DNA of 64,000 bases from a virus. Shown here piece by piece: positions 24,930-50,889 of this stretch (positions are counted from its first letter, which is position 1; each line of letters begins with the position of its first letter). The stretch lies in the IMG/VR virus record IMGVR_UViG_3300037851_000192, positions 1 through 64,000 of that record; one strand, 5' to 3'. Made by a program: the position numbers and the translations under genes. The notes below the pieces were generated by a model. The model saw only the letters and a program-made list of their open reading frames with translations. It was not told the origin of the DNA and made no database searches.

Positions 24930-25053
24930 GGCGCCCGGGGCTCCTCGAGGCCGAGGCCTTCGACCCGATGATCCCGAGCCCGGCGGCGGGGGCGGTCAAC
25001 TTCGGGGCGGGGATCCTCGAGGGGCGGCGAGGCTCGCAAGTTCCGAACGAGGG

Positions 25054-25195
25054 CCCCCCGGGGGGGTAGGGGGGAGGTAGGGCGGCGGGGGCATAAGCGC
25101 CGACACCGGGGCACGAGGGGAGGGGGGTCGCCGAAACACGTTTCGTCGGGGGCGCCAGCTAGGGCGGGCGCTACCCCGGTATGCCCCCCTACCCC
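25054..25195. repeat. G-tract-rich segment bounded by a 12-bp inverted repeat
   Basis: GGGGTAGGGGGG 25063-25074 vs CCCCCCTACCCC 25184-25195. G-runs of at least 4 start at 25060, 25069, 25087, 25108, 25117, 25122 and 25148. Confidence 0.7.
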
Positions 25196-25237
25196 ACATT
25201 CCCCGATATAGTCCGTGAGCTATACACCGACCAACCC

Positions 25238-25276
25238 GAACGCGCGGAACGAACGCGCGGAACGAACGCGCGGAAC
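25238..25276. repeat. 3 x 13-bp perfect tandem repeat GAACGCGCGGAAC
   Basis: Units 25238-25250, 25251-25263 and 25264-25276, in non-coding DNA. Confidence 0.85.
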
Positions 25277-25314
25277 GGGCAGCGGGCGGAGGGCCCGCGG
25301 AAAGCGGCTCCGGC

Positions 25315-25590
25315 TCACGGTAGGCGCATGGGGCGGTCGAGCTTCTCGCACGCCGGGCACCATACAAGCCGGGCGCGGCCCCCCTTACAGCCGAGAGCGA
25401 TCGAGGCGGTGCGCGGTTCGCGCTCCTTGCGCTCGCCGCATAGCGTCGGCCGCAACCTCGAGGGCTCGGCCCCGAGCCGCTCCGCGGCGTCGAGGGCTAG
25501 GGCCTCCGGGGAGTCGAGGGGGAGGACGTGCATAACGTAGCGAGCGGCGCCGTTCCACGTCTCGAGGAAGACGCCGATCCGAGCCTTCAT
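25315..25590 (-). CDS. hypothetical protein
   Basis: ATG 25590 in ORF 25315..25911(-); MKARIGVFLETWNG...; last gene of the leftward operon. Confidence 0.5.
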   Translation of the reverse strand: MKARIGVFLETWNGAARYVMHVLPLDSPEALALDAAERLGAEPSRLRPTLCGERKEREPRTASIALGCKGGRARLVWCPACEKLDRPMRLP

Positions 25591-30362: not shown

Positions 30363-30785
30363 TCACGCCCACGAAAGGTGCGTCGCGCCGGCCGCTTGTG
30401 CGGCGACGACGATCCGCTCGAGGATCGCGACGCGGACGAGGATCCCGTCGGCGTCGAGCCCGGCGCGGAAGAACCGCGGGGGGCGTAGCTCGATCGATCC
30501 GTCCTCGCGCGCGCGGGGAGGCCCCGGCTCCTCGAGGGCGGAGCGCTCGAAGCGCTCGGCACCGCCACGGGCGCGCGCCGCAACGATGGCGCGCCGGAGG
30601 CGGGGAAGCTCGATCTCGCCGAACTCGGGCGAGACCTCGAGACCGAGGTAGCCGAAGACCGCGGCCGCCGTCGAGTAGGCGATCGACAAGTCCTCGCACG
30701 CCGGGCACTCGACCCGCTTCGGGAAGGCGCCGAAGCCGTGGTCCTCGGTCTCGTTCACGTTCAGAGCTTGGAAGGCGATCCCCAT
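30363..30785 (-). CDS. hypothetical protein
   Basis: ORF 30363..30785(-); cassette copy 8 nt upstream of the ATG. Confidence 0.55.
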   Translation of the reverse strand: MGIAFQALNVNETEDHGFGAFPKRVECPACEDLSIAYSTAAAVFGYLGLEVSPEFGEIELPRLRRAIVAARARGGAERFERSALEEPGPPRAREDGSIELRPPRFFRAGLDADGILVRVAILERIVVAAQAAGATHLSWA

Positions 30786-30793
30786 GGTTTCCT

Positions 30794-30815
30794 CTTATAG
30801 CACGAACGATGCCAA
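30794..30815 (-). promoter_or_regulatory. bipartite promoter-like cassette copy M1
   Basis: TTGGCATCGTTCGTGCTATAAG, then 8 nt, then ATG 30785. Confidence 0.5.
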
Positions 30816-30817
30816 AC

Positions 30818-31075
30818 CTACCGCCACGCCCACGGGGCGACCCAACCGGCCGCGAGCCGGAGGGCGGGCACGAAGCGCCGGTTCCGGAGGCCGAGCCCGT
30901 CGGCTTGGATCAAGGTCGGGAGCACGGCGCCGGCGTCGAGGAGTTCGCCGATCGCGTCCTCGCGCTCGACGTCCGAAACCCCGCGCTCGAGGCACGCGGC
31001 CCGGACGTGGTCTTCGGTCTGCTCGCCGGAGCGGAGGATCGTCGCGATCGCCTTGGTTGCCTTGCTCGTCTTCAT
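30818..31075 (-). CDS. hypothetical protein (MKT...)
   Basis: ORF 30818..31075(-); cassette upstream. Confidence 0.55.
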   Translation of the reverse strand: MKTSKATKAIATILRSGEQTEDHVRAACLERGVSDVEREDAIGELLDAGAVLPTLIQADGLGLRNRRFVPALRLAAGWVAPWAWR

Positions 31076-31083
31076 GGTAGACT

Positions 31084-31105
31084 CTTATAGCACACGTCAT
31101 GCCAA
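31084..31105 (-). promoter_or_regulatory. bipartite promoter-like cassette copy M2
   Basis: TTGGCATGACGTGTGCTATAAG + 8 nt + ATG 31075. Its TGA is the stop codon of the upstream gene. Confidence 0.5.
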
Positions 31106-31402
31106 CCGAGCGGAGCGGGCGGCGAGCACGAGCGCGGCGAGCCGCTCCCGGTCCGGTCCGTGAAGGTTGATCCGCGCGACGCCGGCTTCCATGGTCGGGT
31201 AGTCGCGCGAGAACGTCGGGCGCGTGGTCTCGTAGCTTCGGATCCGATGGCGCCAAACCTCCGTGAGTAGAGCCCGAACCGTGCGCAACGGACGGCCGGT
31301 GATCGCGGCAAGCTCGGCCGCGGAATGGTCCCGCCCGTCGGCGAGGTAGGCTTCCGTGATCTCGGCTGCAAAGGTGGCGACTTGTTCCGTCGTGGTCTTC
31401 AT
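31097..31402 (-). CDS. hypothetical protein with HTH-like segment
   Basis: ATG 31402 (MKTTTEQV..., GGAG upstream); SAAELAAITGRPLRTVRALL. Confidence 0.5.
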   Translation of the reverse strand: MKTTTEQVATFAAEITEAYLADGRDHSAAELAAITGRPLRTVRALLTEVWRHRIRSYETTRPTFSRDYPTMEAGVARINLHGPDRERLAALVLAARSARLA

Positions 31403-31404
31403 GG

Positions 31405-31578
31405 TCAACTCCATGGGCCGAAGTGAACGACGCGGTCTTGCTGCTCGGCCGCCCAAGCGTTGGCTTGCTCGGGGCTCGCGAGCCCGTCGCGAACCATGCG
31501 GGCCGCTTTCGTGGCGATCTCCGCGTAGCGGCGTTCGGTGGCTTGCTCCTCGAGGCGTTGGAACTCTTGGCGCGTCAT
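31405..31578 (-). CDS. small hypothetical protein (57 aa, below ORF-track cutoff)
   Basis: Hand translation: MTRQEFQRLEEQATERRYAEIATKAARMVRDGLASPEQANAWAAEQQDRVVHFGPWS; GGGAG upstream. Confidence 0.4.
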   Translation of the reverse strand: MTRQEFQRLEEQATERRYAEIATKAARMVRDGLASPEQANAWAAEQQDRVVHFGPWS

Positions 31579-31582
31579 GGTC

Positions 31583-31804
31583 TTAGCACTCCCTCGCGAG
31601 CCACTTCTCGGCCGCCTTGAAGGCGCCGCGGAGCGTCGTGTAGGTCTTGCCTGAGAACGCGCGGAGCGTGCAACCGCTCGCGGTCGCGACGATGATCCAC
31701 TCGCCCGAGCAGGGCGAGACCGTCGCGGCGCGGTTGCCGCGCGCGAGCGTCGTGTTTCCGAAAGCGTCCGCCGTCCACTCGATCCCGTTGTTCGTCGTCT
31801 TCAT
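31583..31804 (-). CDS. hypothetical protein (MKT...)
   Basis: ORF 31583..31804(-); cassette upstream. Confidence 0.55.
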   Translation of the reverse strand: MKTTNNGIEWTADAFGNTTLARGNRAATVSPCSGEWIIVATASGCTLRAFSGKTYTTLRGAFKAAEKWLAREC

Positions 31805-31812
31805 GGTAGACT

Positions 31813-31834
31813 CTTATAGCACACGTCATGCCAA
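31813..31834 (-). promoter_or_regulatory. bipartite promoter-like cassette copy M3
   Basis: TTGGCATGACGTGTGCTATAAG + 8 nt + ATG 31804. Confidence 0.5.
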
Positions 31835-31835
31835 A

Positions 31836-32097
31836 CGGCCGGATCGTGCTAAGTGCCCGATCCCTCGAGTTCGACCGAGCCGCGCCCCTTGCGTCGAGGT
31901 ATGACAGCCGCGTCATACTGAACTGCCTCCGAACGGCACTTTCGGCGAAAACCGCAACGGGTTCGCGGCCTTGGATATATGGCAGCGAGTATGACATTCG
32001 TGTCATGGTAAACGGGCTCCCGGTCGCGTCGGCGGCGAATTGCGCTGGACTTCCGCGAGGTTGCCGCCGTCCTCGAGGTATGACATTCGTGTCATAC
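31836..32097. repeat. non-coding repeat block L1 with three ATGACA-N4-TGTCAT palindromes
   Basis: Palindromes at 31899-31918, 31989-32008 and 32078-32097. Direct repeat of block L2. GCTAAGTG box at 31848-31855. Confidence 0.8.
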
Positions 32098-32613
32098 TGC
32101 GCTGGCCGTGGCGTTACACTCGGCAAGGAGCGCGTCGGCTTCGCCACGGTCGAGCGCGGCTTCGGCAAGTTGGCGGGCGAGGCCGGTCTCGTCGTAGCAC
32201 TTGTGGCCCATATCGTCGTCGCCGCGGCCGAAGCTCCGCCAATAGCCGTCGCCGGCAATCCAGCAAGATTCGCCGAGGATCTCGACGCTCTCGCTGCGCG
32301 GGCGCGCCTTCAAGGCGACGAGCCGGCGCTCGATCGCGTCGGCGTAGGGGTAGACGATCTCGCGGTCATACTCCGCGTCACAGTAGCGGTTGCCGCCGTT
32401 CAGGATCTCCCCGTGCTCGTCGCGGTCGATCCGGGCGTGGCCCGCGACGATCTCCTTCACCTTGGAGATCGAAACGTAAGGGCTGCGCACCTTTACGGCG
32501 ATCGAGGAGCCGAGCGAGTAGAACTCACACCGGACCGAGACCAACCGGGGCTTGATCCCCGCTGCCTTCAACTGCGCCCGAATCTCCGCCGCGTGGTCTT
32601 TCGTGGTCTTCAT
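32092..32613 (-). CDS. hypothetical protein (N-terminus recalls LPD29-type polyvalent-protein domain; unverified)
   Basis: MKTTKDHAAEIRAQLKAAGIKPRLVSVRCEFYSLGSSIAVKV; cassette upstream. Confidence 0.55.
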   Translation of the reverse strand: MKTTKDHAAEIRAQLKAAGIKPRLVSVRCEFYSLGSSIAVKVRSPYVSISKVKEIVAGHARIDRDEHGEILNGGNRYCDAEYDREIVYPYADAIERRLVALKARPRSESVEILGESCWIAGDGYWRSFGRGDDDMGHKCYDETGLARQLAEAALDRGEADALLAECNATASAV

Positions 32614-32621
32614 GGTTTCCT

Positions 32622-32643
32622 CTTATAGCACGTATGATGCCAA
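32622..32643 (-). promoter_or_regulatory. bipartite promoter-like cassette copy M4
   Basis: TTGGCATCATACGTGCTATAAG + 8 nt + ATG 32613. Confidence 0.5.
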
Positions 32644-32652
32644 CCGCCGGGC

Positions 32653-32877
32653 CTACTCGGCCTCGAGCGCGCGAACGCGGATCCGCGTCGTGCCGAAGAA
32701 GACGCGCACGTCCTCGGCCGCCGCGCTCATGTAGTGGTGAGCGTTCGAGAGCGTCACGCGGACGCGGCTCTTGCCCACGGGCTCGACCGCGGACACAAGC
32801 CATTCCGTCCCGCAAGCCTCGACCGCCCAATCGCCGGCCGTCAACTCGCTCGCCTTCTTCGTCGTCGTGGTCTTCAT
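32653..32877 (-). CDS. hypothetical protein (MKT...)
   Basis: ATG 32877 in ORF 32653..32883(-). Confidence 0.5.
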   Translation of the reverse strand: MKTTTTKKASELTAGDWAVEACGTEWLVSAVEPVGKSRVRVTLSNAHHYMSAAAEDVRVFFGTTRIRVRALEAE

Positions 32878-32885
32878 GGTCAACT

Positions 32886-32907
32886 CTTATAGCACGGATG
32901 ATGCCAA
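32886..32907 (-). promoter_or_regulatory. bipartite promoter-like cassette copy M5
   Basis: TTGGCATCATCCGTGCTATAAG + 8 nt + ATG 32877. Confidence 0.5.
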
Positions 32908-32929
32908 CCGACCGACCGGGCCCCGCGGG

Positions 32930-33235
32930 CTAGAGGGAGAGGTAGAGCCCGGTCGTGCGCTCGAAGGTCTCGCGCATTTGCGCCGTGTCGAGGCCTTCGA
33001 CCTCGAGGACCGTCCGCACGTCGAAGCGGGCGAGCTTGTAGATCGTGACGTTGTAGAGGTCCGCGCCGCGGTCGTAGGTCACGGTCACGGCGTTCGCCTT
33101 GCGCGAGCCCTTGAACTTGAACGAGACGCGGCACGCTTCGTTGTCGTAGGTGAAGCCGTGGGCGCCAAGCATGGCCGAGAGCTTGCCGAAGCCGCCGAGT
33201 TGCTCGATCGTGGTTGCGTTCTGCTCGTTCATCAT
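32930..33235 (-). CDS. hypothetical protein (MMNEQ...)
   Basis: ATG 33235 in ORF 32930..33259(-). The longer start would lie inside the cassette. Confidence 0.55.
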   Translation of the reverse strand: MMNEQNATTIEQLGGFGKLSAMLGAHGFTYDNEACRVSFKFKGSRKANAVTVTYDRGADLYNVTIYKLARFDVRTVLEVEGLDTAQMRETFERTTGLYLSL

Positions 33236-33242
33236 GACCTCT

Positions 33243-33264
33243 TTTATAGCACGCATCATGCCAA
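33243..33264 (-). promoter_or_regulatory. bipartite promoter-like cassette copy M6
   Basis: TTGGCATGATGCGTGCTATAAA + 7 nt + ATG 33235. Confidence 0.5.
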
Positions 33265-33268
33265 CCGA

Positions 33269-33559
33269 TCACGCGACGCGGACGCCGATCCGGCGAGTGT
33301 CCACGATCCAAAGCTCGGCGTCCTCGAGCGTTTGCCAAACGGCGAAGCCGGCAGCGTTGAAGCCGGCGGCCGCGAAGGCGTTCGCGCGGACGAGGAAGAA
33401 GTCGCCGTCGCGGGCGACGACGCGGGAATTGTTGAACATTCCGAGCCAAGCGGCCTTGCCCTTCCGGCCTTGGGTCGCGGCGAAGGTCTCGGCGGCGACG
33501 ACGGCGGGGCGGGAGGCGACGAGGCGGGCGGGGACGGCGGCGAGGTTCTCGGTCTTCAT
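33269..33559 (-). CDS. hypothetical protein (MKT...)
   Basis: ATG 33559 in ORF 33269..33802(-); first gene of the leftward arm. Confidence 0.5.
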   Translation of the reverse strand: MKTENLAAVPARLVASRPAVVAAETFAATQGRKGKAAWLGMFNNSRVVARDGDFFLVRANAFAAAGFNAAGFAVWQTLEDAELWIVDTRRIGVRVA

Positions 33560-33566
33560 GCTTCGA

Positions 33567-33588
33567 GTTATAGCACGCGGCATGCCAA
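33567..33588 (-). promoter_or_regulatory. bipartite promoter-like cassette copy M7
   Basis: TTGGCATGCCGCGTGCTATAAC + 7 nt + ATG 33559. Confidence 0.5.
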
Positions 33589-33853
33589 CCGATCGGGCTG
33601 CGCTAAGTGTCCGATCTCTCGAGCGCTCCGGCCGCGGGCTCCTCGCGTCGAAGCATGACAGCCGTGTCATGCTGAACTGCCTCCGAACGGCCCTTTCGGC
33701 GAAAACCGCAACGTGTTCGCGAGGTTGGATATATGGCAGCAAGTATGACATTCGTGTCATAGCAAACGGGCTCTTGGGCCCTCCGCTCCGCGAAAAGTGC
33801 AAGCGGTTCCGCAGCTTACGCCGTTCGAGCGAGGTATGACATCCGTGTCATAC
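33589..33853. repeat. non-coding repeat block L2 with three ATGACA-N4-TGTCAT palindromes
   Basis: Palindromes at 33653-33672, 33743-33762 and 33834-33853; GCTAAGTG at 33602-33609. Confidence 0.8.
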
Positions 33854-34100
33854 CTGAACGCGGAGGCACGGCCGACGCTCGAGGGCTCCGAGCGCTCCGC
33901 CCGTTGACCCACGGTCAAGAATTGTCACCGGCTCGCAGCCGTAAGCTCGCGTTTCCTATAGCACGCACGCCATAAGCGGACGGCGCGCGCGGCCGGAGCG
34001 ATCGGCTAAGTGCGCGATTCTTGGAGCGTGTGCCGCGAATTGTCACACGCATGCTATAAGAGCTGCCGAAAATTGTCACGCCGGAGGGGTTGACCCACGG

Positions 34101-34122
34101 GCCCAAACCTCGAGGTTTGGGC
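34101..34122. promoter_or_regulatory. perfect 22-bp palindrome GCCCAAACCTCGAGGTTTGGGC, 20 bp upstream of cassette P1
   Basis: Self-complementary over all 22 positions; lies in the divergent control region. Confidence 0.6.
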
Positions 34123-34142
34123 ACTTGCGCGCGTTCGGATCT

Positions 34143-34164
34143 TTGGCATGGCGCGTGCTATAAC
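34143..34164 (+). promoter_or_regulatory. bipartite promoter-like cassette copy P1
   Basis: TTGGCATGGCGCGTGCTATAAC + 7 nt + ATG 34172. Confidence 0.5.
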
Positions 34165-34171
34165 TCCAAGC

Positions 34172-34504
34172 ATGAAGACGAACGAGACGCGCAAGGCTGG
34201 CAACGTGACCGTGACCCGTAGCCGTGTCCTCGGGACCGCCTGCTACGTCTACACCGCTTGGGAGCCTTCGAGCGCGACCGGGCACGGCACGGTCACGACG
34301 ATCGACGGCGCTTGGCACGGCGAGATCGGAAGCCGTCGGGCTCCCGAAGCGGCGCTCGCGCTCCCGGTCGGGCCGGCTCGCTGGGCGGCGCTCGACGCGG
34401 ACCGCGCGGCGCAATACGCCGAGGCGCACGCGGCGATCGTCGCGGCCTTCCCCGAGGCCGCGGAAGGCACGCGCGAGAACGGCCGGATCTCGGTTTGGTC
34501 GTGA
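34172..34504 (+). CDS. hypothetical protein (MKT...)
   Basis: ATG 34172 in ORF 34148..34504; first gene of the rightward arm. Confidence 0.55.
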   Translation: MKTNETRKAGNVTVTRSRVLGTACYVYTAWEPSSATGHGTVTTIDGAWHGEIGSRRAPEAALALPVGPARWAALDADRAAQYAEAHAAIVAAFPEAAEGTRENGRISVWS

Positions 34505-34562
34505 CCTCGAGAACCCCGGGCCGGCTCCGGTCGGCCCAAGCATAGCAAGGAGATCGCAACCC

Positions 34563-34922
34563 ATGAAGACGAGCAGCAACGCAACGCGCAAGGCGGAGAT
34601 CGTGGCAAGCCGTGGCGGATCGCGCGAGGTCCGGATCACGATCACGGACGGCGCGCCGAACGGCCCGCGGGCTAGCTCGCGCGCGCTCGACGCCGAGGCC
34701 TTCCGGCTCGCGGCCGAGGTCGAGCTTGCAACCCCGACGGTCGAGCGGTGGATCGTTCGTGTCGAGCGCGCCTTCGCGCGCTCCTCGGCCGTCGTGATCG
34801 AGCTTGCCAAGGGGACGGCGGACGAAGCCGCGCGGGCTCTGTCCGTGGCGTTTGCGGCGCTCGAGGTCGAGCTTTGCAGCGCGGCGCCGTTGCACGAGCG
34901 GACCGCGTCTCGGTTGGCATGA
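34563..34922 (+). CDS. hypothetical protein (MKT...)
   Basis: ATG 34563 preceded by AAGGAG; its stop TGA lies inside cassette P2. Confidence 0.5.
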   Translation: MKTSSNATRKAEIVASRGGSREVRITITDGAPNGPRASSRALDAEAFRLAAEVELATPTVERWIVRVERAFARSSAVVIELAKGTADEAARALSVAFAALEVELCSAAPLHERTASRLA

Positions 34923-34935
34923 CGTGTGCTATACA
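34914..34935 (+). promoter_or_regulatory. bipartite promoter-like cassette copy P2
   Basis: TTGGCATGACGTGTGCTATACA + 7 nt + ATG 34943. Confidence 0.5.
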
Positions 34936-34942
34936 AGAGGGC

Positions 34943-35548
34943 ATGATGAACGAGACGACGACGGCGTGGCGGTTGGTGGCGGTTCGGGACGTGCGGCCGG
35001 TCGACCTCGACACGGGCAAGCGGATCGACCTCCCCGCCGATATGCTTCCGGAGTGCTGCCGTTGCGGCCGGCGGCACGCCAAGGTCTACGAGGTCACGGA
35101 CGGCGCCCGCGTGCGGACGGTCGGATCGGGATGCGTCCGCGCGGCCTTCGACGGTTGGGAGCCGACGGCCGAGGAGCTTCGGACCGCGCGCAAGGTCGAG
35201 CGGAAGGCGCTCGAGGACGCCCGCCGCGCGTCGATCGCGGCGCGTGCGGCCGAGCTTCTTCCGGCCGCCGTGGCCGTTCTGGCAAGCGTTCCCGCGCCGG
35301 CGGTTCTTAGCACGCGGACGACGGATCCCTTCGGAAATGCGGTCGCCCCGATCGTTCAGTGGGGGAACGACTTCGCCCGCGTTTGGTGCCGCGACGGTCT
35401 CACGGCCGAACGCCGATCGACGCTCGAGGACGCGACGCGCGAGCGGGTGGCCCATCGGGTGGTCGGCGACGCTATGCCCGGCGCACGCTACGCGCTCCGC
35501 GTGCTCGTCGCGGCCGCGCTCGAGGCCTTGATCCGGGGGCGGTCGTGA
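34943..35548 (+). CDS. hypothetical protein (MMNET...), Cys cluster CCRCG
   Basis: ATG 34943 in ORF 34748..35548. Confidence 0.55.
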   Translation: MMNETTTAWRLVAVRDVRPVDLDTGKRIDLPADMLPECCRCGRRHAKVYEVTDGARVRTVGSGCVRAAFDGWEPTAEELRTARKVERKALEDARRASIAARAAELLPAAVAVLASVPAPAVLSTRTTDPFGNAVAPIVQWGNDFARVWCRDGLTAERRSTLEDATRERVAHRVVGDAMPGARYALRVLVAAALEALIRGRS

Positions 35549-35841
35549 GCCGGGGGCGGGACCTCGACGGCCGGGCGGGCTGCGTCCGGCTCGGGCGCTC
35601 GAGGCAAACCGGCCGGCTCGTCGGCGTCTACCGCTCGAGGGACGCGGGGTTGGACGAGGGCGAGCCCGGCGAGTTCTCGACGGCTTGGTCGGTCGTGTGC
35701 GAGGAGCACGGGGCGATCGTCGGGCTCGGGACGCGGAGGGACGCCGAGCTTGCCGCGGCCGACCCGCGCGGGTTCTGCGAGGACTGCCAAGCCGAAGCCC
35801 AACCTACACGGACGCATGACAGCCGTGTCATACTGAACTGA
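35545..35841 (+). CDS. hypothetical protein
   Basis: GTG 35545 (GTGA overlap); 3' end runs into repeat block R1. Confidence 0.45.
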   Translation: MSRGRDLDGRAGCVRLGRSRQTGRLVGVYRSRDAGLDEGEPGEFSTAWSVVCEEHGAIVGLGTRRDAELAAADPRGFCEDCQAEAQPTRTHDSRVILN

Positions 35842-35948
35842 GCAAAAGTGAATCAAGCCCGCGAGACCGTTGAAGAAAAGAGCTATGACATTCGTGTCAT
35901 AGAAGTGAAAGGTTTGCGTAGCGGCAGATCCGCGCACTTAGCGGATCG
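35803..35948. repeat. 146-bp repeat block R1 with two ATGACA-N4-TGTCAT palindromes
   Basis: Near-identical to 37210-37355. Palindromes at 35814-35833 and 35883-35902; CACTTAGC at 35935-35942. Confidence 0.85.
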
Positions 35949-36018
35949 GGGCTCCTCGAGGCGCACGGCCCGGGGCTCCTCGAGGCGCACGGCCCGGGGC
36001 TCCTCGAGGCGCACGGCT
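35947..36018. repeat. 3 x 24-bp tandem repeat CGGGGCTCCTCGAGGCGCACGGCC
   Basis: Units 35947-35970, 35971-35994 and 35995-36018 (last base differs), between block R1 and cassette P3. Confidence 0.85.
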
Positions 36019-36052
36019 TCGGCCGTTCGGGCACTTCGGCCGGTTGTGTTGT

Positions 36053-36074
36053 TTGGCATGGCGCGTGCTATAAC
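36053..36074 (+). promoter_or_regulatory. bipartite promoter-like cassette copy P3
   Basis: TTGGCATGGCGCGTGCTATAAC + 7 nt + ATG 36082. Confidence 0.5.
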
Positions 36075-36081
36075 TCCAAGC

Positions 36082-36468
36082 ATGAAGACGCCGACCGAAC
36101 TCCTTGCCCCCTACGCCGCCTTGACCCCGTGCGACCCGACCGAGGGCCCGACGTTCCGCGCCATCGCGCGCAAGCTCTCGAAGGGCGCCCGGCGCTTCGT
36201 CGGCGCCGTCTACTCCGCGCCCGTGACGCTCACGCGCAACCCCGAGCTTTGCCGATGCTTCCGCGAGCTTTCCGAGGCCGACCGCGCGCGCATGCTCGTT
36301 TGGCGGACCTCGAACACGCGAGGGCAGACCGTGATCAAGGCGGAGCACGAGGACGCGCTTCGCGAGTGCATTCGCGCCGGGCTCCTCGAGGTTGCCAAGC
36401 TCGGGGAAGGCGTGGGCGTCGCTCGCGCGACCGACCTCGGCCGCCGCGTCTACCTTCACGTCTACTAG
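36082..36468 (+). CDS. hypothetical protein (MKT...)
   Basis: ATG 36082 in ORF 35848..36468. The upstream part of that ORF covers repeats and is rejected. Confidence 0.55.
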   Translation: MKTPTELLAPYAALTPCDPTEGPTFRAIARKLSKGARRFVGAVYSAPVTLTRNPELCRCFRELSEADRARMLVWRTSNTRGQTVIKAEHEDALRECIRAGLLEVAKLGEGVGVARATDLGRRVYLHVY

Positions 36469-36484
36469 GCCGACGGCCGCCCGG

Positions 36485-36506
36485 CTGGCATGCCGCGTGC
36501 TATAAG
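36485..36506 (+). promoter_or_regulatory. bipartite promoter-like cassette copy P4
   Basis: CTGGCATGCCGCGTGCTATAAG + 8 nt + ATG 36515. Confidence 0.5.
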
Positions 36507-36514
36507 AGGGAAGC

Positions 36515-36697
36515 ATGAAGACGCCGAAGCCGAGCAAGTGGAACCGGGCGATCGTGGTCTCGGTTCCCGGGCACAACGAAGACGATCCCGCAACCTACCA
36601 CGTGATCTCGCGCGACCGCGCCGAGCGTTACGCGCTCGACACGCAGACCTTCGCGACGGCGAAGGAAGCGGCCCGCGCGCTCCGGGGGGCAGCATGA
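36515..36697 (+). CDS. hypothetical protein (MKT...)
   Basis: ORF 36515..36697. Confidence 0.5.
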   Translation: MKTPKPSKWNRAIVVSVPGHNEDDPATYHVISRDRAERYALDTQTFATAKEAARALRGAA

Positions 36698-36900
36698 AGC
36701 CGAGGACGACGACGGCTAAGGGCGGGACGATCTACCGGCCGTGCCCGTGCGGCGAGACCGCGCACGATCTCATGGTCTGCCCGGCCGCGCTCGTGCCCGA
36801 GGCTCCGGCCGTGGCCGTGAACGAGTGGGGCAACGTGTGGATCTACAAGTGTCGAAATTGCCGAGCGCGGATCTACCGCACGACGCGGGGGGCAGCATGA
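36694..36900 (+). CDS. hypothetical Cys-rich small protein
   Basis: ATGA overlap start 36694; CPCGE...CP...CRNC. Confidence 0.5.
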   Translation: MKPRTTTAKGGTIYRPCPCGETAHDLMVCPAALVPEAPAVAVNEWGNVWIYKCRNCRARIYRTTRGAA

Positions 36901-37226
36901 CCGGCCGCCCGGTCTCGAGGGCTTCCGCGCGCGCGCTCGTGCGCGCCGGCGTCGAGGTCCGGTTCGGCCGACGCGGGCTCGAGGCGCCGGCGTGGGCCGC
37001 GATCGTCGCCTCCGCCTACTCCGATCCCCTTGCCGCGGTCGAGCCTTTGCGCGGGCTGCTAGCACTCCGCCACGGGCCCGAGCTTGCGGCCGCGGCGTTC
37101 GGGCTCCGGGCCCCGATCCCGGGGGCGGCCGCGCGCGTCTTCGCGCTGCTCGGTCCGGCCGCGCGGGTTGCCGTCGAGCCCGGCCGCGGCGACCAACCGA
37201 CGCGGCTTGCCTACACGGACGCATGA
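36897..37226 (+). CDS. hypothetical protein
   Basis: ATGA overlap start 36897; 3' end runs into repeat block R2. Confidence 0.45.
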   Translation: MTGRPVSRASARALVRAGVEVRFGRRGLEAPAWAAIVASAYSDPLAAVEPLRGLLALRHGPELAAAAFGLRAPIPGAAARVFALLGPAARVAVEPGRGDQPTRLAYTDA

Positions 37227-37355
37227 CAGCCGTGTCATACTGAACTCGGCAAAAGTGAATCAAGCGCGCGGAACCGTTGAAGAAACGAGCTATGACATTC
37301 GTGTCATAGAAGTGAAAGGTTTGCGTAGCAGCGGATCCGCGCACTTAGCGGATCG
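37210..37355. repeat. 146-bp repeat block R2 with two ATGACA-N4-TGTCAT palindromes
   Basis: Palindromes at 37221-37240 and 37290-37309; CACTTAGC at 37342-37349. Confidence 0.85.
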
Positions 37356-37433
37356 CCGCCCGGCCGGCGGGCTCGAGGGCTCCGGCCGTTGGCGGCGCGA
37401 ACGAAACTACGCGGGCTTGCGCTCCGCGACCGT

Positions 37434-37455
37434 TTGGCATGGCGCGTGCTATAAC
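37434..37455 (+). promoter_or_regulatory. bipartite promoter-like cassette copy P5
   Basis: TTGGCATGGCGCGTGCTATAAC + 7 nt + ATG 37463. Confidence 0.5.
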
Positions 37456-37462
37456 TCCAACC

Positions 37463-37750
37463 ATGAAGACGACGACGATCACGAAGGAGCAGGGCAAGCG
37501 GTTGGCGGCGGCTTGGGAGATCGTGAACCCCGCGGTTCCGGGCTACCAGGATTGGAAATCCCCGATCGCTTGGGGGATCTCGACGCGGCACTTGGACGAG
37601 CACTTGGCGGGGCGCGCGGGCGTCACGCTCGAAGACGTCCTAGACGCGATCGAGTTCTACACGGCGACCGCGGCGACCGTGACCGAGATCGGCGACATGA
37701 CTTGGATCAAGGCTCCCGGCTACCGCAACGGCCCCGCGGGCGACCACTGA
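37463..37750 (+). CDS. hypothetical protein (MKT...)
   Basis: ATG 37463 in ORF 37439..37750. Confidence 0.55.
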   Translation: MKTTTITKEQGKRLAAAWEIVNPAVPGYQDWKSPIAWGISTRHLDEHLAGRAGVTLEDVLDAIEFYTATAATVTEIGDMTWIKAPGYRNGPAGDH

Positions 37751-37761
37751 CCGACGGGGCT

Positions 37762-37790
37762 CGAGGAGCCCGGAGCGGCCGGGCTCCTCG
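37762..37790 (+). terminator. 12-bp-stem hairpin abutting cassette P6
   Basis: CGAGGAGCCCGG-agcgg-CCGGGCTCCTCG; no U-tract; ends 1 nt before TTGGCAT. Confidence 0.4.
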
Positions 37791-37791
37791 G

Positions 37792-37813
37792 TTGGCATGG
37801 TGCGTGCTATACT
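37792..37813 (+). promoter_or_regulatory. bipartite promoter-like cassette copy P6
   Basis: TTGGCATGGTGCGTGCTATACT + 8 nt + ATG 37822. Confidence 0.5.
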
Positions 37814-37821
37814 TCGAGGGC

Positions 37822-38100
37822 ATGACGAGCGAAAGGACGGACAGCATGAAGACGACGCGGACCGGAGCCCGGACCCTGTTTACCCTCTACTGCGCGCGCA
37901 CGGGCGAGAGTAGCGCGATCTGCGTGTGCCACGCGCACGCCAAGGAAATGCCGGCGGTCGATGGGGATCGCGTCCGCGCGGACGCGGCGGACGACGACTG
38001 CTCGTGCGACTTCTGCGAAGCGGCCGCGACCTTCGAGGCGCGGGCGGCCGCGAAGGCGGAGCGCGTGTGGTCGGCCGCTTGCCATGCTTGGGTCCGTTGA
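37822..38100 (+). CDS. hypothetical Cys-rich protein
   Basis: ATG 37822 (MTSERTDSMKTT...) in ORF 37084..38100; CVCHAH...CSCDFC. Confidence 0.5.
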   Translation: MTSERTDSMKTTRTGARTLFTLYCARTGESSAICVCHAHAKEMPAVDGDRVRADAADDDCSCDFCEAAATFEARAAAKAERVWSAACHAWVR

Positions 38101-38111
38101 CCCGACGGGCT

Positions 38112-38140
38112 CGAGGAGCCCGGCTGCTCCGGGCTCCTCG
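38112..38140 (+). terminator. 12-bp-stem hairpin abutting cassette P7
   Basis: CGAGGAGCCCGG-ctgct-CCGGGCTCCTCG; same arms as 37762-37790 with a different loop. Confidence 0.4.
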
Positions 38141-38141
38141 G

Positions 38142-38163
38142 TTGGCATGGCGTGTGCTATAAC
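38142..38163 (+). promoter_or_regulatory. bipartite promoter-like cassette copy P7 (no ORF; ATG position reads ATC)
   Basis: TTGGCATGGCGTGTGCTATAAC + 7 nt + ATC 38171. Confidence 0.5.
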
Positions 38164-38172
38164 TTCAAGCAT

Positions 38173-38259
38173 CGCAGGCACCGACGAAAAGCCCCCGGGC
38201 GGGGGGCCCGCAAGGGCGATCGGTGGCTCGGCCGGGTTCGACTCCCGGGCTTGCGACCA
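38173..38259 (+). ncRNA. tRNA-like RNA element (acceptor stem + T-arm + encoded CCA; no canonical D or anticodon arm)
   Basis: 7-bp acceptor stem 38173-38179/38249-38255 (one G-U). T-arm CCGGG-TTCGACT-CCCGG at 38232-38248. A-CCA at 38256-38259. Internal GC hairpins at 38192-38205 and 38206-38217 (GCAA loop). Confidence 0.5.
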
Positions 38260-38312: not shown

Positions 38313-38729
38313 ATGGCAGACGAAGCGCGAGAGATCGACACGAGCACCGACCGCGATTGGCTCCGGCCGTCGGATTGGTTTCGGGACGTCCGAACGCGGG
38401 CGGGGTTGACGCAGCAGGAATTTGCGGCGGCGAACGTGGTCGCCCAATCGGTCGTGACCGTTTGGGAGCGGCCGAGCGATGCGACGCCGCGGCCCGAGAC
38501 GCTCGCACGCGTGGCGGCGGTGCTCGGCGTCGAGCCCCCGATCATGCTTTGCCGCGCCGGGGGCGTCATGATCCGGCGGGCGCAACGCGAGCCGGAGATC
38601 GACCGCGAGAAGCTCGCGGCGAGCAACCCGAAGGTGGCGAAGCGGTTCCGGCGCGGACCGCTCGCGGAACGGAGGAACGCGCCAAGGGAGGACCATGCGC
38701 CCGAGGAAGAAGGCGACGCGGTGGCATGA
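38313..38729 (+). CDS. XRE-like helix-turn-helix protein
   Basis: ATG 38313 (GAGGTGAG upstream); RTRAGLTQQEFAAANVVAQSVVTVWERP. Confidence 0.6.
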   Translation: MADEAREIDTSTDRDWLRPSDWFRDVRTRAGLTQQEFAAANVVAQSVVTVWERPSDATPRPETLARVAAVLGVEPPIMLCRAGGVMIRRAQREPEIDREKLAASNPKVAKRFRRGPLAERRNAPREDHAPEEEGDAVA

Positions 38730-47362: not shown

Positions 47363-47695
47363 ATGAGCGAACCGGGCGAAGTGATCGCGCGGTGCACGCT
47401 CACGGCCGCGAGCTATCAGAAGTGCCTTGCGACGCTCGAACGCGGGCAAGTCAAGCGCGTGATCCAACGTGGCCCGCTCGTCGGGTATTACCTTTGCTGC
47501 CCGTCGTGCGGTTGGGCTAGCGCCTACCTTCACGAGAAGTGCGGATACGTCGAGGCCGAGCCCTACGTCGGGACGTCATGGCCGCGGCGGCTCGTCGGGA
47601 TCACGAATCCCCCGACGTGCCACAAGTGCCGATCGCGTTTGTCGATCGAGAGCGGCGTCGAGGGCTTCGACCTCGTGGCGCGGGGGCAGCCGTGA
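47363..47695 (+). CDS. zinc-ribbon protein
   Basis: CCPSCGW...CHKCRS. Confidence 0.5.
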   Translation: MSEPGEVIARCTLTAASYQKCLATLERGQVKRVIQRGPLVGYYLCCPSCGWASAYLHEKCGYVEAEPYVGTSWPRRLVGITNPPTCHKCRSRLSIESGVEGFDLVARGQP

Positions 47696-50600: not shown

Positions 50601-50889
50601 GATCGCGCCGCGGTTGACGCGCTACCTCGTCTCGAAGGGGATCGACCAAGAGCGAGCCGCGGGCCTAGCGGCGAGCGTGGCCACGGAGTCGTGGGCGGTC
50701 GCGGCGCTCGACGTAGACGACAGAAGGATCAACGTCACGAGCGAGGGGAAGAAAATGGACATGAAGCTCGGCAAGGCGTTCCTGTTGGAATACACGAACA
50801 CGAGCGGCGATATGTGGAGCGGCACGATCGACCTCGAGGACAAGAGTCACCCGACCTACCAGCGCGCGAAGGCGCGCGTTGGTCTCTAG
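47692..50889 (+). CDS. MuF/SPP1 gp7-like minor head protein with two ParB-like repeats and a GNAT-like C-terminal domain
   Basis: GTG 47692 (GTGA overlap); LDEVTTDVCRMMHGKTF and PPLHGHCRSVIVP (MuF); repeats at 48946-49386 and 49522-49986; EQGKKTGESMLRQSIQTYEELGAHKL (GNAT motif-A-like). Confidence 0.7.
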   Translation: MIGLVAIRRGRYAADEILAKVFGLPVRKARRVNPNKPKGFDAFVVSLLGDLVEEAEPIEREAIKTWLRDMDRNWPSMTKDQRNAAIDRAAREWLDTTRRIPVHQWPTYAAHGKTIVEQTKAAAVLEHGIRIVPSFDLVDAQAVKSSAEMQAFYTRNSYGLREVQMSEQARKIVSAGIEGGLDRYEIGKDLAAMAATGPVSWQRSMGYFQMIASVFTARARSYSNLSAYQQAEIERFRFEAVLDEVTTDVCRMMHGKTFTTSTALEGYAKVAASEDPEDVKTIQPWVQTGKNEQGDQILYYKNAEGSRVKVASVNESAVGKKDTIGSYAGMSPRQLERAGISAPPLHGHCRSVIVPASMQGGVGAVPRGPAPAAVPVAPSAPVAPAAPPPAPAPVVPTAPAPAPVVPPPAAAPAPPPVLRTDQDRAWHALDRLGRLPRADPNDREFDAIVNPIPSARPDSYALPWTDKTERQVGRLSERFRQLEASGGAPPAQQVKINQLRSMSPDLLRANVMTGIGEEFTGAPGEIPLLVRHRGQLYIYENAERVAAATLGGRSTIAAHVIDLDADEPWPKPAPTPAAAPPLVRQPAPIAPRPVAPPPPPPPAPIIPARARTFRDDEARGSFALEQLSGLPEFDSGEPSDLRFVQNPIPSFTREVTGYSNPPWSAENQARLTKFEERLGVLRKEGRAPLPRALRIGELQSMSPDLLPKNIAQGVVEEFYGVPGDTPVVVRTGGKLYVYTNVERVAAAKLGGRSTVSAHVIDLDARKPWRAPPKKKKPEPAPAPAPGEEPKPKKIPVSYVSSEEFARKHTSAYASAFTKKEFAAAARKVFPSDKIPTVESLEKVWGSEAAEHSIKISSVRAYDEDGVAKVWLSGDIIGPKGNSIGRITRTFIRYPKDRRHPNGLLEVHHDYFKIEDADEQGKKTGESMLRQSIQTYEELGAHKLTVDAAWVGRYTWATFGYNWTENYGRNTIAPRLTRYLVSKGIDQERAAGLAASVATESWAVAALDVDDRRINVTSEGKKMDMKLGKAFLLEYTNTSGDMWSGTIDLEDKSHPTYQRAKARVGL

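What the first reader, a model, noticed from the sequence alone, without database searches (positions are those of the whole stretch)
30794..38163. Fourteen copies of a 22-bp bipartite promoter-like cassette at a fixed 7-8 nt from start codons, in two divergent arms
There are seven copies on the minus strand: 30794, 31084, 31813, 32622, 32886, 33243 and 33567. There are seven on the plus strand: 34143, 34914, 36053, 36485, 37434, 37792 and 38142. The consensus is TTGGCAT-N5-GTGCTATA[AC]N. Two invariant blocks flank exactly five variable bases. That is the geometry of RpoN promoters (consensus TGGCAC-N5-TTGCW, with -24 GG and -12 GC). The 3' block can also be read as an extended -10 element (TGC-TATAAC). 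In 13 of 14 copies an ATG follows the TATAAN hexamer after 7 or 8 nt. Under either reading the transcription start therefore falls within about 0-3 nt of the start codon. That implies leaderless or near-leaderless mRNAs. The purine-rich bases in the spacer would then not be transcribed. Conservation continues into the ORFs. Nine proteins start MKT (ATG AAG ACS) and two start MMNE. In two places the cassette's TTGGCATGA supplies the stop codon of the preceding gene (31097 and 34922, both proteins ending RLA). A reiterated cassette of this kind driving about 8 kb of unknown small genes is not something I can map to a described phage system.
Basis: partly seen in the sequence, partly recalled or inferred. 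Interest (0 to 1): 0.85.

Follow-up and report, generated by a model that had tools for sequence, protein, structure and literature searches.

The report
Repeated phage promoter abutting start codons
An uncultured ~100-kb phage carries 14 near-identical copies of a 22-bp promoter-like cassette, each fixed 9-10 bases before a start codon of a small unknown gene. The cassette fits the sigma-54 promoter layout better than the ordinary bacterial one, which makes it an unusual but untested variant of the repeated early promoters known in other phages.

Summary
There are 14 copies of TTGGCAT-N5-GTGCTATA, seven per strand, where 0.03 are expected by chance. They lie only at 30.8-38.2 kb, in two arms diverging from a 550-bp non-coding centre. 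In 13 copies an ATG follows TATA after 9-10 nt and opens an ORFan gene. The 14th copy precedes a conserved tRNA-like leader and an HTH regulator gene.

The window is an uncultured ~99.5-kb myovirus with no cultured relative and an unknown host. No RNA polymerase, sigma factor or enhancer-binding protein was found in the roughly 75 kb seen.

The best reading is a reiterated early-type promoter that starts transcription at or within a few nt of the ATG. The sigma-70 extended -10 reading is weak: the -7 position is T in 1 of 14 copies and there is no -35 element. The sigma-54 layout (GG-N10-GC, TGGCAY-N5-KTGCW) fits all 14 copies and nothing else in 64 kb. However, no activator or upstream activating site was found, and the invariant TATAA is not a sigma-54 feature.

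The same cassette occurs in two close relatives and is absent from more distant ones. The architecture, repeated promoters plus ten 16-bp palindromes, parallels phiC31 early promoters and their operators. I rate it a new variant of a known kind.

The parts
30796..30815 (-). Cassette 1. ATG at 30785 (gene 30363-30785), followed by a tight operon of about 14 small genes running to about 25.3 kb.
31086..31105 (-). Cassette 2. It overlaps the stop codon of gene 31097-31402 and drives gene 30818-31075 (MKT).
31815..31834 (-). Cassette 3. It follows a 257-nt non-coding module and drives gene 31583-31804 (MKT).
32624..32643 (-). Cassette 4. It drives gene 32092-32613 (MKT, 173 aa).
32888..32907 (-). 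Cassette 5. It drives gene 32653-32877 (MKT).
33245..33264 (-). Cassette 6. It drives gene 32930-33235 (MMNE). The protein matches phrog_9437, of unknown function.
33569..33588 (-). Cassette 7, the first of the leftward arm. Its spacer has no SD. It drives gene 33269-33559 (MKT).
33589..34142 (.). Central non-coding control region between the two arms. It holds three of the 16-bp palindromes and three copies of AATTGTCAC. It also holds two degenerate cassettes (33957-33976 minus strand, 34039-58 plus strand) that keep TGCTATA but lose the GG block. Two sigma-70-like consensus hits lie on the minus strand.
34143..34162 (+). Cassette 8, the first of the rightward arm. Its spacer has no SD. It drives gene 34172-34504 (MKT).
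34914..34933 (+). Cassette 9. It overlaps the stop codon of gene 34563-34922 and drives gene 34943-35548 (MMNE).
36053..36072 (+). Cassette 10. It follows a non-coding module, its spacer has no SD, and it drives gene 36082-36468 (MKT).
36485..36504 (+). Cassette 11, the copy that begins CTGGCAT. It drives gene 36515-36697 (MKT) and two further genes running to 37226.
37434..37453 (+). Cassette 12. It follows a non-coding module, its spacer has no SD, and it drives gene 37463-37750 (MKT).
37792..37811 (+). Cassette 13. It directly follows a 13-bp GC hairpin (37762-37790) and drives gene 37822-38100.
38142..38161 (+). Cassette 14. It directly follows a 13-bp GC hairpin (38112-38140). ATC replaces ATG at the usual position.
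38172..38258 (+). tRNA-like leader RNA with an acceptor-like stem and a T-arm (CCGGG-TTCGACT-CCCGG). It starts 1 nt after the position where the ATG lies in the other cassettes. It is nearly identical in relatives L119 and L149.
38313..38729 (+). HTH_3 (XRE-type) regulator gene, transcribed from cassette 14 behind the tRNA-like leader.
31901..32095 (.). Three copies of the 16-bp palindrome ATGACA-NNCG-TGTCAT, in a non-coding module.
33655..33851 (.). Three copies of the same palindrome, in the central region.
35816..35900 (.). Two copies of the same palindrome, inside the 146-nt repeat 35803-35948.
37223..37307 (.). Two copies of the same palindrome, inside the 146-nt repeat 37210-37355 (95% identical to 35803-35948).

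Best explanation
The cassette is a reiterated transcription promoter of an early-type gene block in an uncultured ~99.5-kb myovirus. Fourteen copies drive about 15 kb of small ORFan genes in two arms that diverge from a 550-bp control region. Two degenerate copies lie in that centre.

Each cassette places the only AT-rich, easily melted box (TATAA) 9-10 nt before an ATG. A cellular multisubunit RNA polymerase would therefore start at, or 0-5 nt upstream of, the ATG. The mRNAs made from a cassette would be leaderless or nearly so. Genes at tight junctions keep a GAGG so that they can also be translated from read-through polycistronic RNA.

The upstream half (TTGGCAT-N5-GTGC) has the -24/-12 layout of sigma-54 promoters (GG-N10-GC). 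This is the only known holoenzyme geometry that fits two recognition blocks this close together. The most likely reader is therefore the host sigma-54 holoenzyme, or a phage factor that recognises DNA in the same way. The invariant TATAA would be an added melting element. The ten 16-bp palindromes between transcription units are probably operators of a phage regulator such as the HTH_3 protein.

Shown: the copies, their fixed geometry, their restriction to this block, and their presence in close relatives. Inferred: promoter function, the start site and the polymerase form.

My sub-probabilities are about 0.7 that it is a promoter, about 0.5 that the start lies within 5 nt of the ATG, and about 0.3-0.35 that recognition is of the sigma-54 type.
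For: - Fourteen copies against 0.03 expected, all co-oriented with the downstream gene.
- Thirteen of 13 coding cassettes have ATG exactly 9-10 nt after TATA. Only about 56% of my crude calls for other genes start with ATG.
- Five cassettes have an SD-free spacer (ACTCCAAGC type). These are exactly the ones that follow the non-coding centre, a non-coding module or a hairpin. GAGG occurs in 5 of 7 tight-junction cassettes and in 1 of 7 unit-initial ones (Fisher p=0.05).
- Cassette 14 keeps CAT at the same distance although no ORF follows. A conserved tRNA-like fold begins 1 nt later.
- Literature: a TA-like box about 12 nt upstream of the start codon is the bacterial signature of leaderless genes (PMC3160421).
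- Sigma-54 fit: GG-N10-GC is invariant, and TGGCAY-N5-KTGCW hits only the 14 cassettes in 64 kb.
- The sigma-70 alternative fails at -7 and at -35.
- No phage RNA polymerase or sigma factor was found in about 50 proteins scanned, nor in the precomputed Pfam hits of the flanks.
- The capsid-internal 1116-aa MuF protein is not a polymerase.
- The same cassette is present in two close relatives: L119 with one copy and L149 with two, both with ATG or ATC at the same distance.
- Two cassettes directly follow 13-bp GC hairpins, as expected for a terminator followed by a promoter.
Against: - There are no transcript data, so every functional step is inferred.
- The host is unknown. The only organism link is a 45%-identical TerL on an Armatimonadetes MAG contig. 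The presence of RpoN therefore cannot be checked.
- Sigma-54 needs an ATPase activator and usually an upstream activating site. No such protein was found, and internal cassettes have unrelated coding DNA upstream.
- The invariant TATAA and the semi-conserved inner block are not sigma-54 features.
- If the A of the ATG is +1, the GC dinucleotide sits at -15/-14 or -16/-15 rather than -13/-12.
- Six of 14 spacers contain GAGG, at the spacing typical of this phage's ribosome-binding sites. That would be wasted if the spacer were never transcribed.
- The copies are evolutionarily young duplicates, so invariance overstates functional constraint.
- The cassette is absent from relatives with TerL identity of 68% or less. 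No independent lineage therefore tests which positions matter.
Confidence: 0.5

Rival explanations
1. The cassette is the promoter of a phage-encoded or virion-delivered RNA polymerase, of the T7, N4 or phiKZ kind. About 20 contiguous conserved bases end in ...CTATA, and transcription starts at the A or C right after TATA. This gives 9-10-nt leaders that carry the GAGG Shine-Dalgarno (SD) sequence.
For: - Conservation is nearly continuous over about 23 bp and stops sharply after TATAA, as in single-subunit polymerase promoters (established knowledge: T7 and SP6 promoters end ...CACTATA then +1).
- Six of 14 spacers hold GAGG. In three of them it lies 5 nt before the ATG. In the two MMNE genes it lies 5 nt before the second ATG. 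This is the ribosome-binding-site pattern of this phage.
Against: - No RNA polymerase was detected by Pfam, PHROGs or NCBIfam in the window, nor in the precomputed Pfam hits of the flanks. About 75 of 99.5 kb was seen.
- The only large capsid-internal protein ends in two ParB-like repeats and a GNAT-like domain. Relatives swap this part for NUDIX or ADP-ribosyltransferase (ART) domains.
- The cassette is absent from the replication and structural modules, where phage-made polymerases usually act.
- The semi-variable block would fall at -13 to -9, which is the specificity region of T7-type promoters.
- Five cassettes would give 9-nt leaders with no SD.
- About 24 kb of the genome was not seen, so a polymerase gene there cannot be excluded.
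Confidence: 0.15
2. The cassette is a sigma-70-family promoter read through its 3' block only. That block would be an extended -10 element (TGCTATAA), used either by the host housekeeping sigma or by a diverged phage sigma of the T4 gp55 type (late promoter TATAAATA). TTGGCAT would be the site of an accessory phage or host factor. The mRNAs would be leaderless.
For: - TG-n-TATAA matches TGnTATAAT in 8 of 9 positions.
- The first T of TATAAN lies 13-14 nt before the ATG, close to the roughly 12 nt of leaderless TA-like signals (PMC3160421).
- The two degenerate central copies keep TGCTATA but lose the GG block. The 3' block may therefore be able to stand alone.
Against: - The -7 position, which is T in essentially all sigma-70-family -10 elements (TANNNT), is G6/C5/A2/T1.
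- No register of the cassette gives both A at -11 and T at -7.
- There is no -35-like hexamer at 16-18 bp, and the consensus scan calls none of the 14.
- No sigma-like protein was found.
- This reading leaves the invariant TTGGCAT, 5 nt upstream, unexplained.
Confidence: 0.2
3. The cassette is not a promoter but a protein-binding or RNA-level element placed at gene starts. One possibility is an asymmetric repressor site like the 'stoperators' of mycobacteriophage L5. Others are a start-associated sequence as in Cluster K mycobacteriophages, or a site for a translational regulator or processing enzyme on long transcripts made from the central region.
For: - Like stoperators, the copies lie in very short intergenic gaps, sometimes overlap stop codons, and always point with transcription (the stoperator properties are from memory of Brown et al. 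1997).
- The cassette is a weak pseudo-dyad (TGGCAT / GTGCTA).
- Unrelated metagenome contigs hold dense clusters of TGGCAY-N5-RTGCTA in both orientations. These look like binding-site arrays rather than promoters.
- An HTH_3 regulator is encoded next to the array.
Against: - The invariant AT-rich TATAA at a fixed 9-10 nt from an ATG is what a promoter needs, and is not needed by an operator.
- A separate family of ten true palindromes already fills the operator role.
- No integrase or other sign of lysogeny was seen in the roughly 75 kb examined.
- The predicted hairpin has no compensatory changes and is only -5 kcal/mol.
- Two cassettes sit directly after strong hairpins that would end upstream transcripts.
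Confidence: 0.1

Closest known systems
Streptomyces phage phiC31 early promoters with conserved inverted repeat (CIR) operators
   Same: Both have a highly conserved, non-sigma-70-like promoter sequence repeated many times in the intergenic gaps of the early region. Both interleave it with a repeated palindromic operator. In phiC31 I found 8-9 copies of CCGGGTTGCCGACTCCCTTAC and several copies of CCTACTCACGTGAGTAGG. Their roles as early promoters and repressor operators are from memory of Ingham et al. 1993/1994 and Smith et al. 1999.
   Different: There is no sequence similarity. The phiC31 copies lie about 50-70 nt upstream of start codons and so give leadered mRNAs, whereas here the distance is 9-10 nt. 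PhiC31 has one direction of transcription, whereas here there are two divergent arms. The two phages are unrelated: a 41-kb temperate siphovirus against a ~100-kb myovirus.
Sigma-54 (RpoN) -24/-12 promoters
   Same: GG-N10-GC is invariant. The flanks TGGCA and TGC(T) match the consensus TGGCAC-N5-TTGCW at 9 of 11 positions. A degenerate core pattern finds only the cassettes.
   Different: No activator or upstream site was found. The invariant TATAA follows the GC directly. The predicted start is 14-15 nt after the GC if it is the A of the ATG. The promoters sit in a phage early-type block, and I know of no experimentally shown case of that (literature searches found none).
Leaderless-gene promoters of high-GC bacteria (TANNNT about 12 nt upstream of the start codon)
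   Same: Both have an AT box at a fixed short distance before an ATG. Here all starts are ATG, and the unit-initial genes have no SD (PMC3160421).
   Different: The last T of TANNNT is missing in 13 of 14 copies. A second invariant block lies 5 nt upstream.
Start-associated sequences (SAS) of Cluster K mycobacteriophages and stoperators of L5-like phages
   Same: Both are short asymmetric motifs repeated 10-30 times. They are oriented with transcription and lie a few bases from start codons or in very short intergenic gaps (from memory: Pope et al. 2011; Brown et al. 1997).
   Different: The sequences are different. SAS contains the ribosome-binding site itself. Stoperators have no fixed distance to start codons and no TATA-like box. 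Neither was tested here beyond position and orientation.
T7, SP6 and N4-type phage polymerase promoters
   Same: Both show about 20 bp of near-identical sequence in many copies, ending in ...CTATA.
   Different: No polymerase gene was found. The copies are restricted to the ORFan block. The positions that would be the specificity region are the least conserved ones.

Membership tests
Sigma-54-dependent promoter | GG and GC dinucleotides separated by exactly 10 nt, within TGGCAC-N5-TTGCW | tested here: met
   All 14 copies have TGGCAT-N5-GTGCT. The pattern TGGCAY-N5-KTGCW hits only these 14 in 64 kb against 0.03 expected.
Sigma-54-dependent promoter | An enhancer-binding AAA+ activator and its upstream binding sites | tested here: not met
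   No Sigma54_activat or other AAA+ activator hit appeared in about 50 phage proteins or in the precomputed Pfam hits. No shared motif lies upstream of the internal cassettes. A host activator cannot be excluded.
Sigma-54-dependent promoter | The host encodes RpoN | not testable with these tools
   The host is unknown, there is no cultured relative, and the only organism link is a MAG contig.
Sigma-54-dependent promoter | Transcription start about 12 nt downstream of the GC | not testable with these tools
   The geometry predicts a start 2-3 nt before the ATG. The A of the ATG lies 14-15 nt after the C. No transcript data are available.
Sigma-70 extended -10 promoter | TG one base upstream of a -10 hexamer with A at -11 and T at -7 | tested here: not met
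   TG and A at -11 are present, but -7 is G6/C5/A2/T1. No alternative register restores it.
Sigma-70 extended -10 promoter | Recognisable by a two-hexamer consensus (optional for extended -10 promoters) | tested here: not met
   The scan calls none of the cassettes. Positions -6 to -1 read CGNTCG.
Single-subunit phage RNA polymerase promoter | A cognate polymerase gene in the phage | tested here: inconclusive
   None was found in about 75 of 99.5 kb. The 1116-aa MuF protein is excluded as a candidate. About 24 kb was not seen.
Single-subunit phage RNA polymerase promoter | Copies placed before middle and late (replication, structural) genes | tested here: not met
   All copies lie within 30.8-38.2 kb. 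There are none in the rest of the window or in the flanks L147 and L148.
Leaderless-mRNA promoter (TA-like signal) | An AT box about 10-12 nt upstream of a start codon that is ATG (or GTG), with no SD | tested here: met
   The first T of TATAA lies 13-14 nt before the ATG in 13 of 13 copies. Five of 14 spacers are SD-free and 3 have only AGAG. The definition is taken from PMC3160421. The actual 5' ends were not tested.
phiC31-type early promoter and operator architecture | A multi-copy conserved promoter plus a multi-copy palindromic operator in early intergenic regions | tested here: met
   The window has 14 cassettes plus 10 palindromes ATGACA-N4-TGTCAT. PhiC31 has 8-9 promoter copies plus CIRs. 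The match is architectural only. There is no sequence homology and function was not tested.
L5-type stoperator | An asymmetric site bound by the prophage repressor in a temperate phage | tested here: inconclusive
   Orientation and the short-gap placement fit. No integrase or immunity cassette was seen in about 75 kb. Binding was not tested.

The most novel reading that the evidence does not exclude
A lytic phage of a high-GC host that has sigma-54 (for example Myxococcota or Acidobacteriota, groups in which leaderless genes are also common) runs its whole host-takeover gene block from 14 sigma-54-type promoters. These are fused to an AT-rich melting box and directly to the start codon. The mRNAs would be leaderless, and initiation would be independent of a classical enhancer. 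Activation might come from an unknown phage factor or from an ejected capsid protein. This would be the first phage early programme built on sigma-54 recognition.
Probability: 0.25. Interest if true: 0.75.

Novelty: new variant of a known kind. Interest (0 to 1): 0.5.

Why it matters
If the cassettes are sigma-54-type leaderless promoters, they would show a way for a phage to recruit host polymerase that has not been demonstrated. They would also yield a compact 30-bp promoter-plus-start module for high-GC bacteria.

Even on the conservative reading, the cassette gives a ready handle on a large, uncultured ~100-kb phage family (750 TerL relatives in metagenomes). It marks the early genes. It explains why short-read assemblies of these phages break at this region. 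It also offers a simple reporter test that could help identify the host's transcription machinery.

Tried and rejected
- Near-identical DNA in cultured phages: none. PolA and TerL are below 30% identity to any isolate.
- Exact motif in IMG/VR: 114 single hits at chance level and no arrays.
- Exact motif in metagenome contigs: 26 single hits in unrelated contigs with GC from 37 to 75%. About two thirds are intergenic, but there are no relatives of this phage among them. The clusters of TGGCAY-N5-RTGCTA in L141, L138 and L123 were followed up. Their neighbouring ORFs have no Pfam hits, so I dropped this line.
- Host assignment through TerL in GTDB genomes: one Armatimonadetes MAG contig at 45% identity, which is not informative.
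- Relatives with TerL identity of 68% or less (L117, L118, L150, L116): no cassette within 4 mismatches and no other repeated promoter-like motif in the DNA available.
- tRNA or Rfam identity for the leader after cassette 14: ARAGORN was negative and Rfam gave only sub-threshold tRNA-Sec and mascRNA hits.
- RNA or DNA hairpin in the cassette (N4-type promoter or RNA operator): 6-7 weak pairs with no covariation.
- Virion RNA polymerase hidden in the 1116-aa MuF protein: rejected from its sequence make-up and from the variable C-termini of its homologues. I therefore did not spend a structure prediction on it.
- C at -1 as an initiator signal: rejected, because C at -1 is common at this phage's SD-led starts too (43 of 68).
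- Sigma-54 weight matrix from published promoter sets: the supplements are not held, so only a consensus-level test was done.
- PhiC31 and P23-45 primary papers are not held. Statements about them rest on memory plus my own repeat analysis of the phiC31 genome.

Full report
OBSERVATION. The motif TTGGCATNNNNNGTGCTATA occurs 14 times with up to 2 mismatches. Thirteen copies are exact and one has C for the first T. Seven copies lie on each strand, and 0.03 are expected from shuffles. The minus-strand copies (30796-33588) and the plus-strand copies (34143-38161) point away from a 550-bp non-coding centre (33589-34142).

The two half-motifs are almost private to the cassettes: TTGGCAT in 13 of its 14 occurrences in 64 kb, and GCTATA in 14 of 20. 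Two further GCTATA sites are degenerate cassettes in the centre. They keep TGCTATA but have lost the GG block.

In 13 copies an ATG lies 9 or 10 nt after TATA and opens an ORF of 60-201 aa with high third-position GC. Nine of these proteins start MKT and two start MMNE. The 14th copy has ATC at that place. The two stop-codon overlaps (cgg TTG GCA TGA, proteins ending RLA) are real.

Two corrections apply. First, the five 'variable' bases are semi-conserved, so conservation is almost continuous over about 23 bp. Second, MKT starts also occur on two neighbouring genes that have ordinary Shine-Dalgarno (SD) sequences and no cassette.

CONTEXT. The window is a phage with 68% GC. Its layout is as follows:
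- Replication module at 2-20 kb: helicase, DnaB, primase-like protein, PolA fused to UDG, gp32-like SSB, SbcCD-like proteins and FEN.
- Cassette block at 30.8-38.2 kb.
- An HTH_3 regulator gene at 38313-38729.
- A ParB-methyltransferase on the minus strand.
- TerL, portal, a 1116-aa MuF protein, a prohead protease and the major capsid protein.
- Contractile-tail genes beyond the window end.

The identical TerL lies on a 99.5-kb JGI contig. The family is large, with 750 TerL relatives, many on contigs of about 100 kb. None is cultured: no near-identical DNA match was found, and PolA and TerL are below 30% identity to any isolate. The host is unknown. The only organism label is an Armatimonadetes MAG contig with a 45%-identical TerL.

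The leftward arm continues beyond cassette 1 as a tight operon of about 14 small genes running to about 25.3 kb. Every cassette-driven protein tested is an ORFan. There was one PHROG hit of unknown function and one sub-threshold Prim-Pol hit. This is what the early, host-takeover region of a lytic phage looks like.

OTHER REPEATS IN THE BLOCK.
- Ten copies of a 16-bp palindrome, ATGACA-NNCG-TGTCAT, lie only in the non-coding stretches between transcription units.
- Two pairs of longer non-coding modules are repeated: 31814-32019 with 33568-33773, and 35803-35948 with 37210-37355.
- Cassettes 13 and 14 sit directly behind perfect 13-bp GC hairpins.
- Behind cassette 14 comes a roughly 90-nt tRNA-like fold that starts 1 nt after the position where the ATG lies in the other cassettes. 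It is followed by the HTH_3 gene. This leader is almost identical in two relatives.

RELATIVES. Two close relatives carry the same cassette. L119 has TerL 87% identical. L149 shares the neighbouring 170-aa protein at 86% identity. L119 shows one copy and L149 two, with ATG or ATC at the same distance. Their contigs, and the Logan contigs from the window's own sample, break at or near the cassettes. This is expected for short-read assembly of a 14-copy repeat, and it limits comparative data.

Relatives with TerL identity of 68% or less have no cassette within four mismatches in the DNA available. L117 carries homologues of genes from both arms in one co-linear operon without internal promoters. 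The cassette array is therefore young and specific to this lineage. Its invariance partly reflects recent duplication.

WHICH POLYMERASE?

(a) Sigma-70 with an extended -10. TG-n-TATAA is present. However, the position that must be T (-7) is G6/C5/A2/T1, no other register gives both A at -11 and T at -7, there is no -35, and the consensus scan calls none of the 14. This defining feature is not met.

(b) Sigma-54. GG-N10-GC is invariant, and TGGCAT-N5-GTGCT matches TGGCAC-N5-TTGCW at 9 of 11 positions. A degenerate core pattern finds these 14 sites and nothing else in 64 kb. By my estimate from base composition, the chance that an arbitrary 22-bp conserved block contains TGGCA-N7-TGC in some register is about 3 in 10,000. 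Against this reading, no activator or shared upstream site was found, the invariant TATAA is foreign to sigma-54 promoters, and the host may lack RpoN.

(c) A phage polymerase starting right after TATA. No polymerase was found in about 75 of 99.5 kb. The 1116-aa capsid protein has two ParB-like repeats and a GNAT-like end, where its homologues carry NUDIX or ADP-ribosyltransferase (ART) domains. It is therefore a variable ejected effector and not a polymerase. The cassette is also absent from the replication and structural genes.

(d) An operator or RNA element. The predicted hairpin is weak and shows no covariation. In addition, a separate palindrome family already fits the operator role.

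WHERE DOES TRANSCRIPTION START? With a cellular polymerase, both the sigma-54 and the -10 readings place +1 at the ATG or up to about 5 nt before it. Four features fit leaderless or near-leaderless mRNAs.
- All 13 starts are ATG, against about 56% in my crude calls for the rest of the phage.
- The TATAA box lies at the distance reported for leaderless genes (PMC3160421).
- The five cassettes with an SD-free spacer are exactly those that open a transcription unit. They follow the centre, a non-coding module or a hairpin.
- GAGG is found in 5 of 7 cassettes that sit within 25 nt of an upstream stop codon, where read-through RNA would need it, and in 1 of 7 of the others (p=0.05).

The tRNA-like RNA that begins at the equivalent position behind cassette 14 points the same way. 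The weakness is that GAGG at a good distance could equally mean a start at TATA+1. C at -1 is not diagnostic, because it is common at all starts in this phage.

COMPARISON WITH KNOWN SYSTEMS. The nearest described architecture is the phiC31 early region. Its genome has 8-9 copies of a conserved non-canonical promoter and several copies of a palindromic operator in the intergenic gaps (their functions are from memory of the primary papers, which are not held). The differences are no sequence similarity, leadered mRNAs (about 50-70 nt) in phiC31, and unrelated phages. Cluster K start-associated sequences and L5 stoperators share the placement and orientation rules but not the TATA box. Literature searches found no phage early programme shown to depend on sigma-54.

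VERDICT. The promoter interpretation is plausible and the leaderless geometry is reasonable. The extended -10 reading is disfavoured. The sigma-54 layout is the best known fit but lacks an activator, a host and any transcript evidence. I rate it a new variant of a known kind (a multi-copy phage early promoter) with moderate interest.

Noticed in passing
window 38172-38258 (also L119 about 325-410 and L149 about 488-575): A roughly 90-nt tRNA-like fold lies between cassette 14 and the HTH_3 gene. It has an acceptor-like stem and a T-arm (CCGGG-TTCGACT-CCCGG). It ends in CCA in the window but in CTA in L149. It is nearly identical in three phages. ARAGORN was negative, and Rfam gave only sub-threshold tRNA-Sec and mascRNA hits. 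It could be a processing signal or a decoy.
   Followed up: partly
window 31901-32095, 33655-33851, 35816-35900, 37223-37307: Ten copies of the 16-bp palindrome ATGACA-NNCG-TGTCAT occur only in the non-coding stretches of the cassette block. All have the same flanks on the plus strand (…ACTGAACTG). Two of them read as intrinsic terminators on the minus strand (CTATGACACGAATGTCATAG followed by a T-rich tail). They are candidate operators.
   Followed up: partly
window 31814-32019 / 33568-33773 and 35803-35948 / 37210-37355: Two pairs of long non-coding repeats (206 nt at 83% identity, 146 nt at 95%) contain the palindromes, internal hairpins and a GCACTTAGC motif. They are possibly small-RNA genes or regulatory modules.
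   Followed up: no
window 33900-34100: The central region holds three copies of AATTGTCAC, two copies of TTGACCCACGG, two degenerate cassettes and two sigma-70-like consensus hits on the minus strand (GTGACA-17-TAGCAT and GTGACA-18-AAGAAT). It possibly holds the true immediate-early promoters or an origin.
   Followed up: partly
window 47539-50889: The 1116-aa MuF (SPP1 gp7-like) capsid protein contains a proline-rich linker, two internally repeated ParB-like domains and a GNAT-like C-terminus. Homologues in relatives carry NUDIX or ADP-ribosyltransferase (ART) domains instead, so it is a polymorphic ejected effector. The full-length version is shared only with the close relative that also has the cassette.
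   Followed up: partly
window 24930-25320: A non-coding stretch at the end of the leftward operon holds long G and C runs (ccccccgggggggtagggggg...) and three tandem copies of GAACGAACGCGCG.
   Followed up: no
L150 12640-13300 and 14070-14800: A distant relative (GC 72%, NCBI metagenome contig) has two non-coding stretches of about 700 nt built from degenerate GGC-rich units with a period of about 10 nt. These are unlike anything in the window.
   Followed up: no
L141 100-330; L138 7370-7610; L123 180-400: Unrelated metagenome contigs hold dense clusters of TGGCAY-N5-RTGCTA on both strands, partly as perfect face-to-face palindromes (TGGCATGGCGCGTGCTATAGCAACGCGCGTGCCA). Neighbouring ORFs have no Pfam hit. 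They may be binding-site arrays for an unknown protein that recognises the same bipartite motif.
   Followed up: partly
L117 6352-9717; L118 18-2017: Relatives encode Tet/JBP-type dioxygenases, glycosyltransferases and cytosine methylases next to TerL. This suggests hypermodified DNA in this phage family. The window has a ParB-N6/N4 methyltransferase at that place instead.
   Followed up: no
whole window: CTCGAG-containing words are strongly over-represented (CCTCGAGGAGC occurs 17 times). This is probably a Leu-Glu codon-pair effect in this high-GC phage.
   Followed up: no
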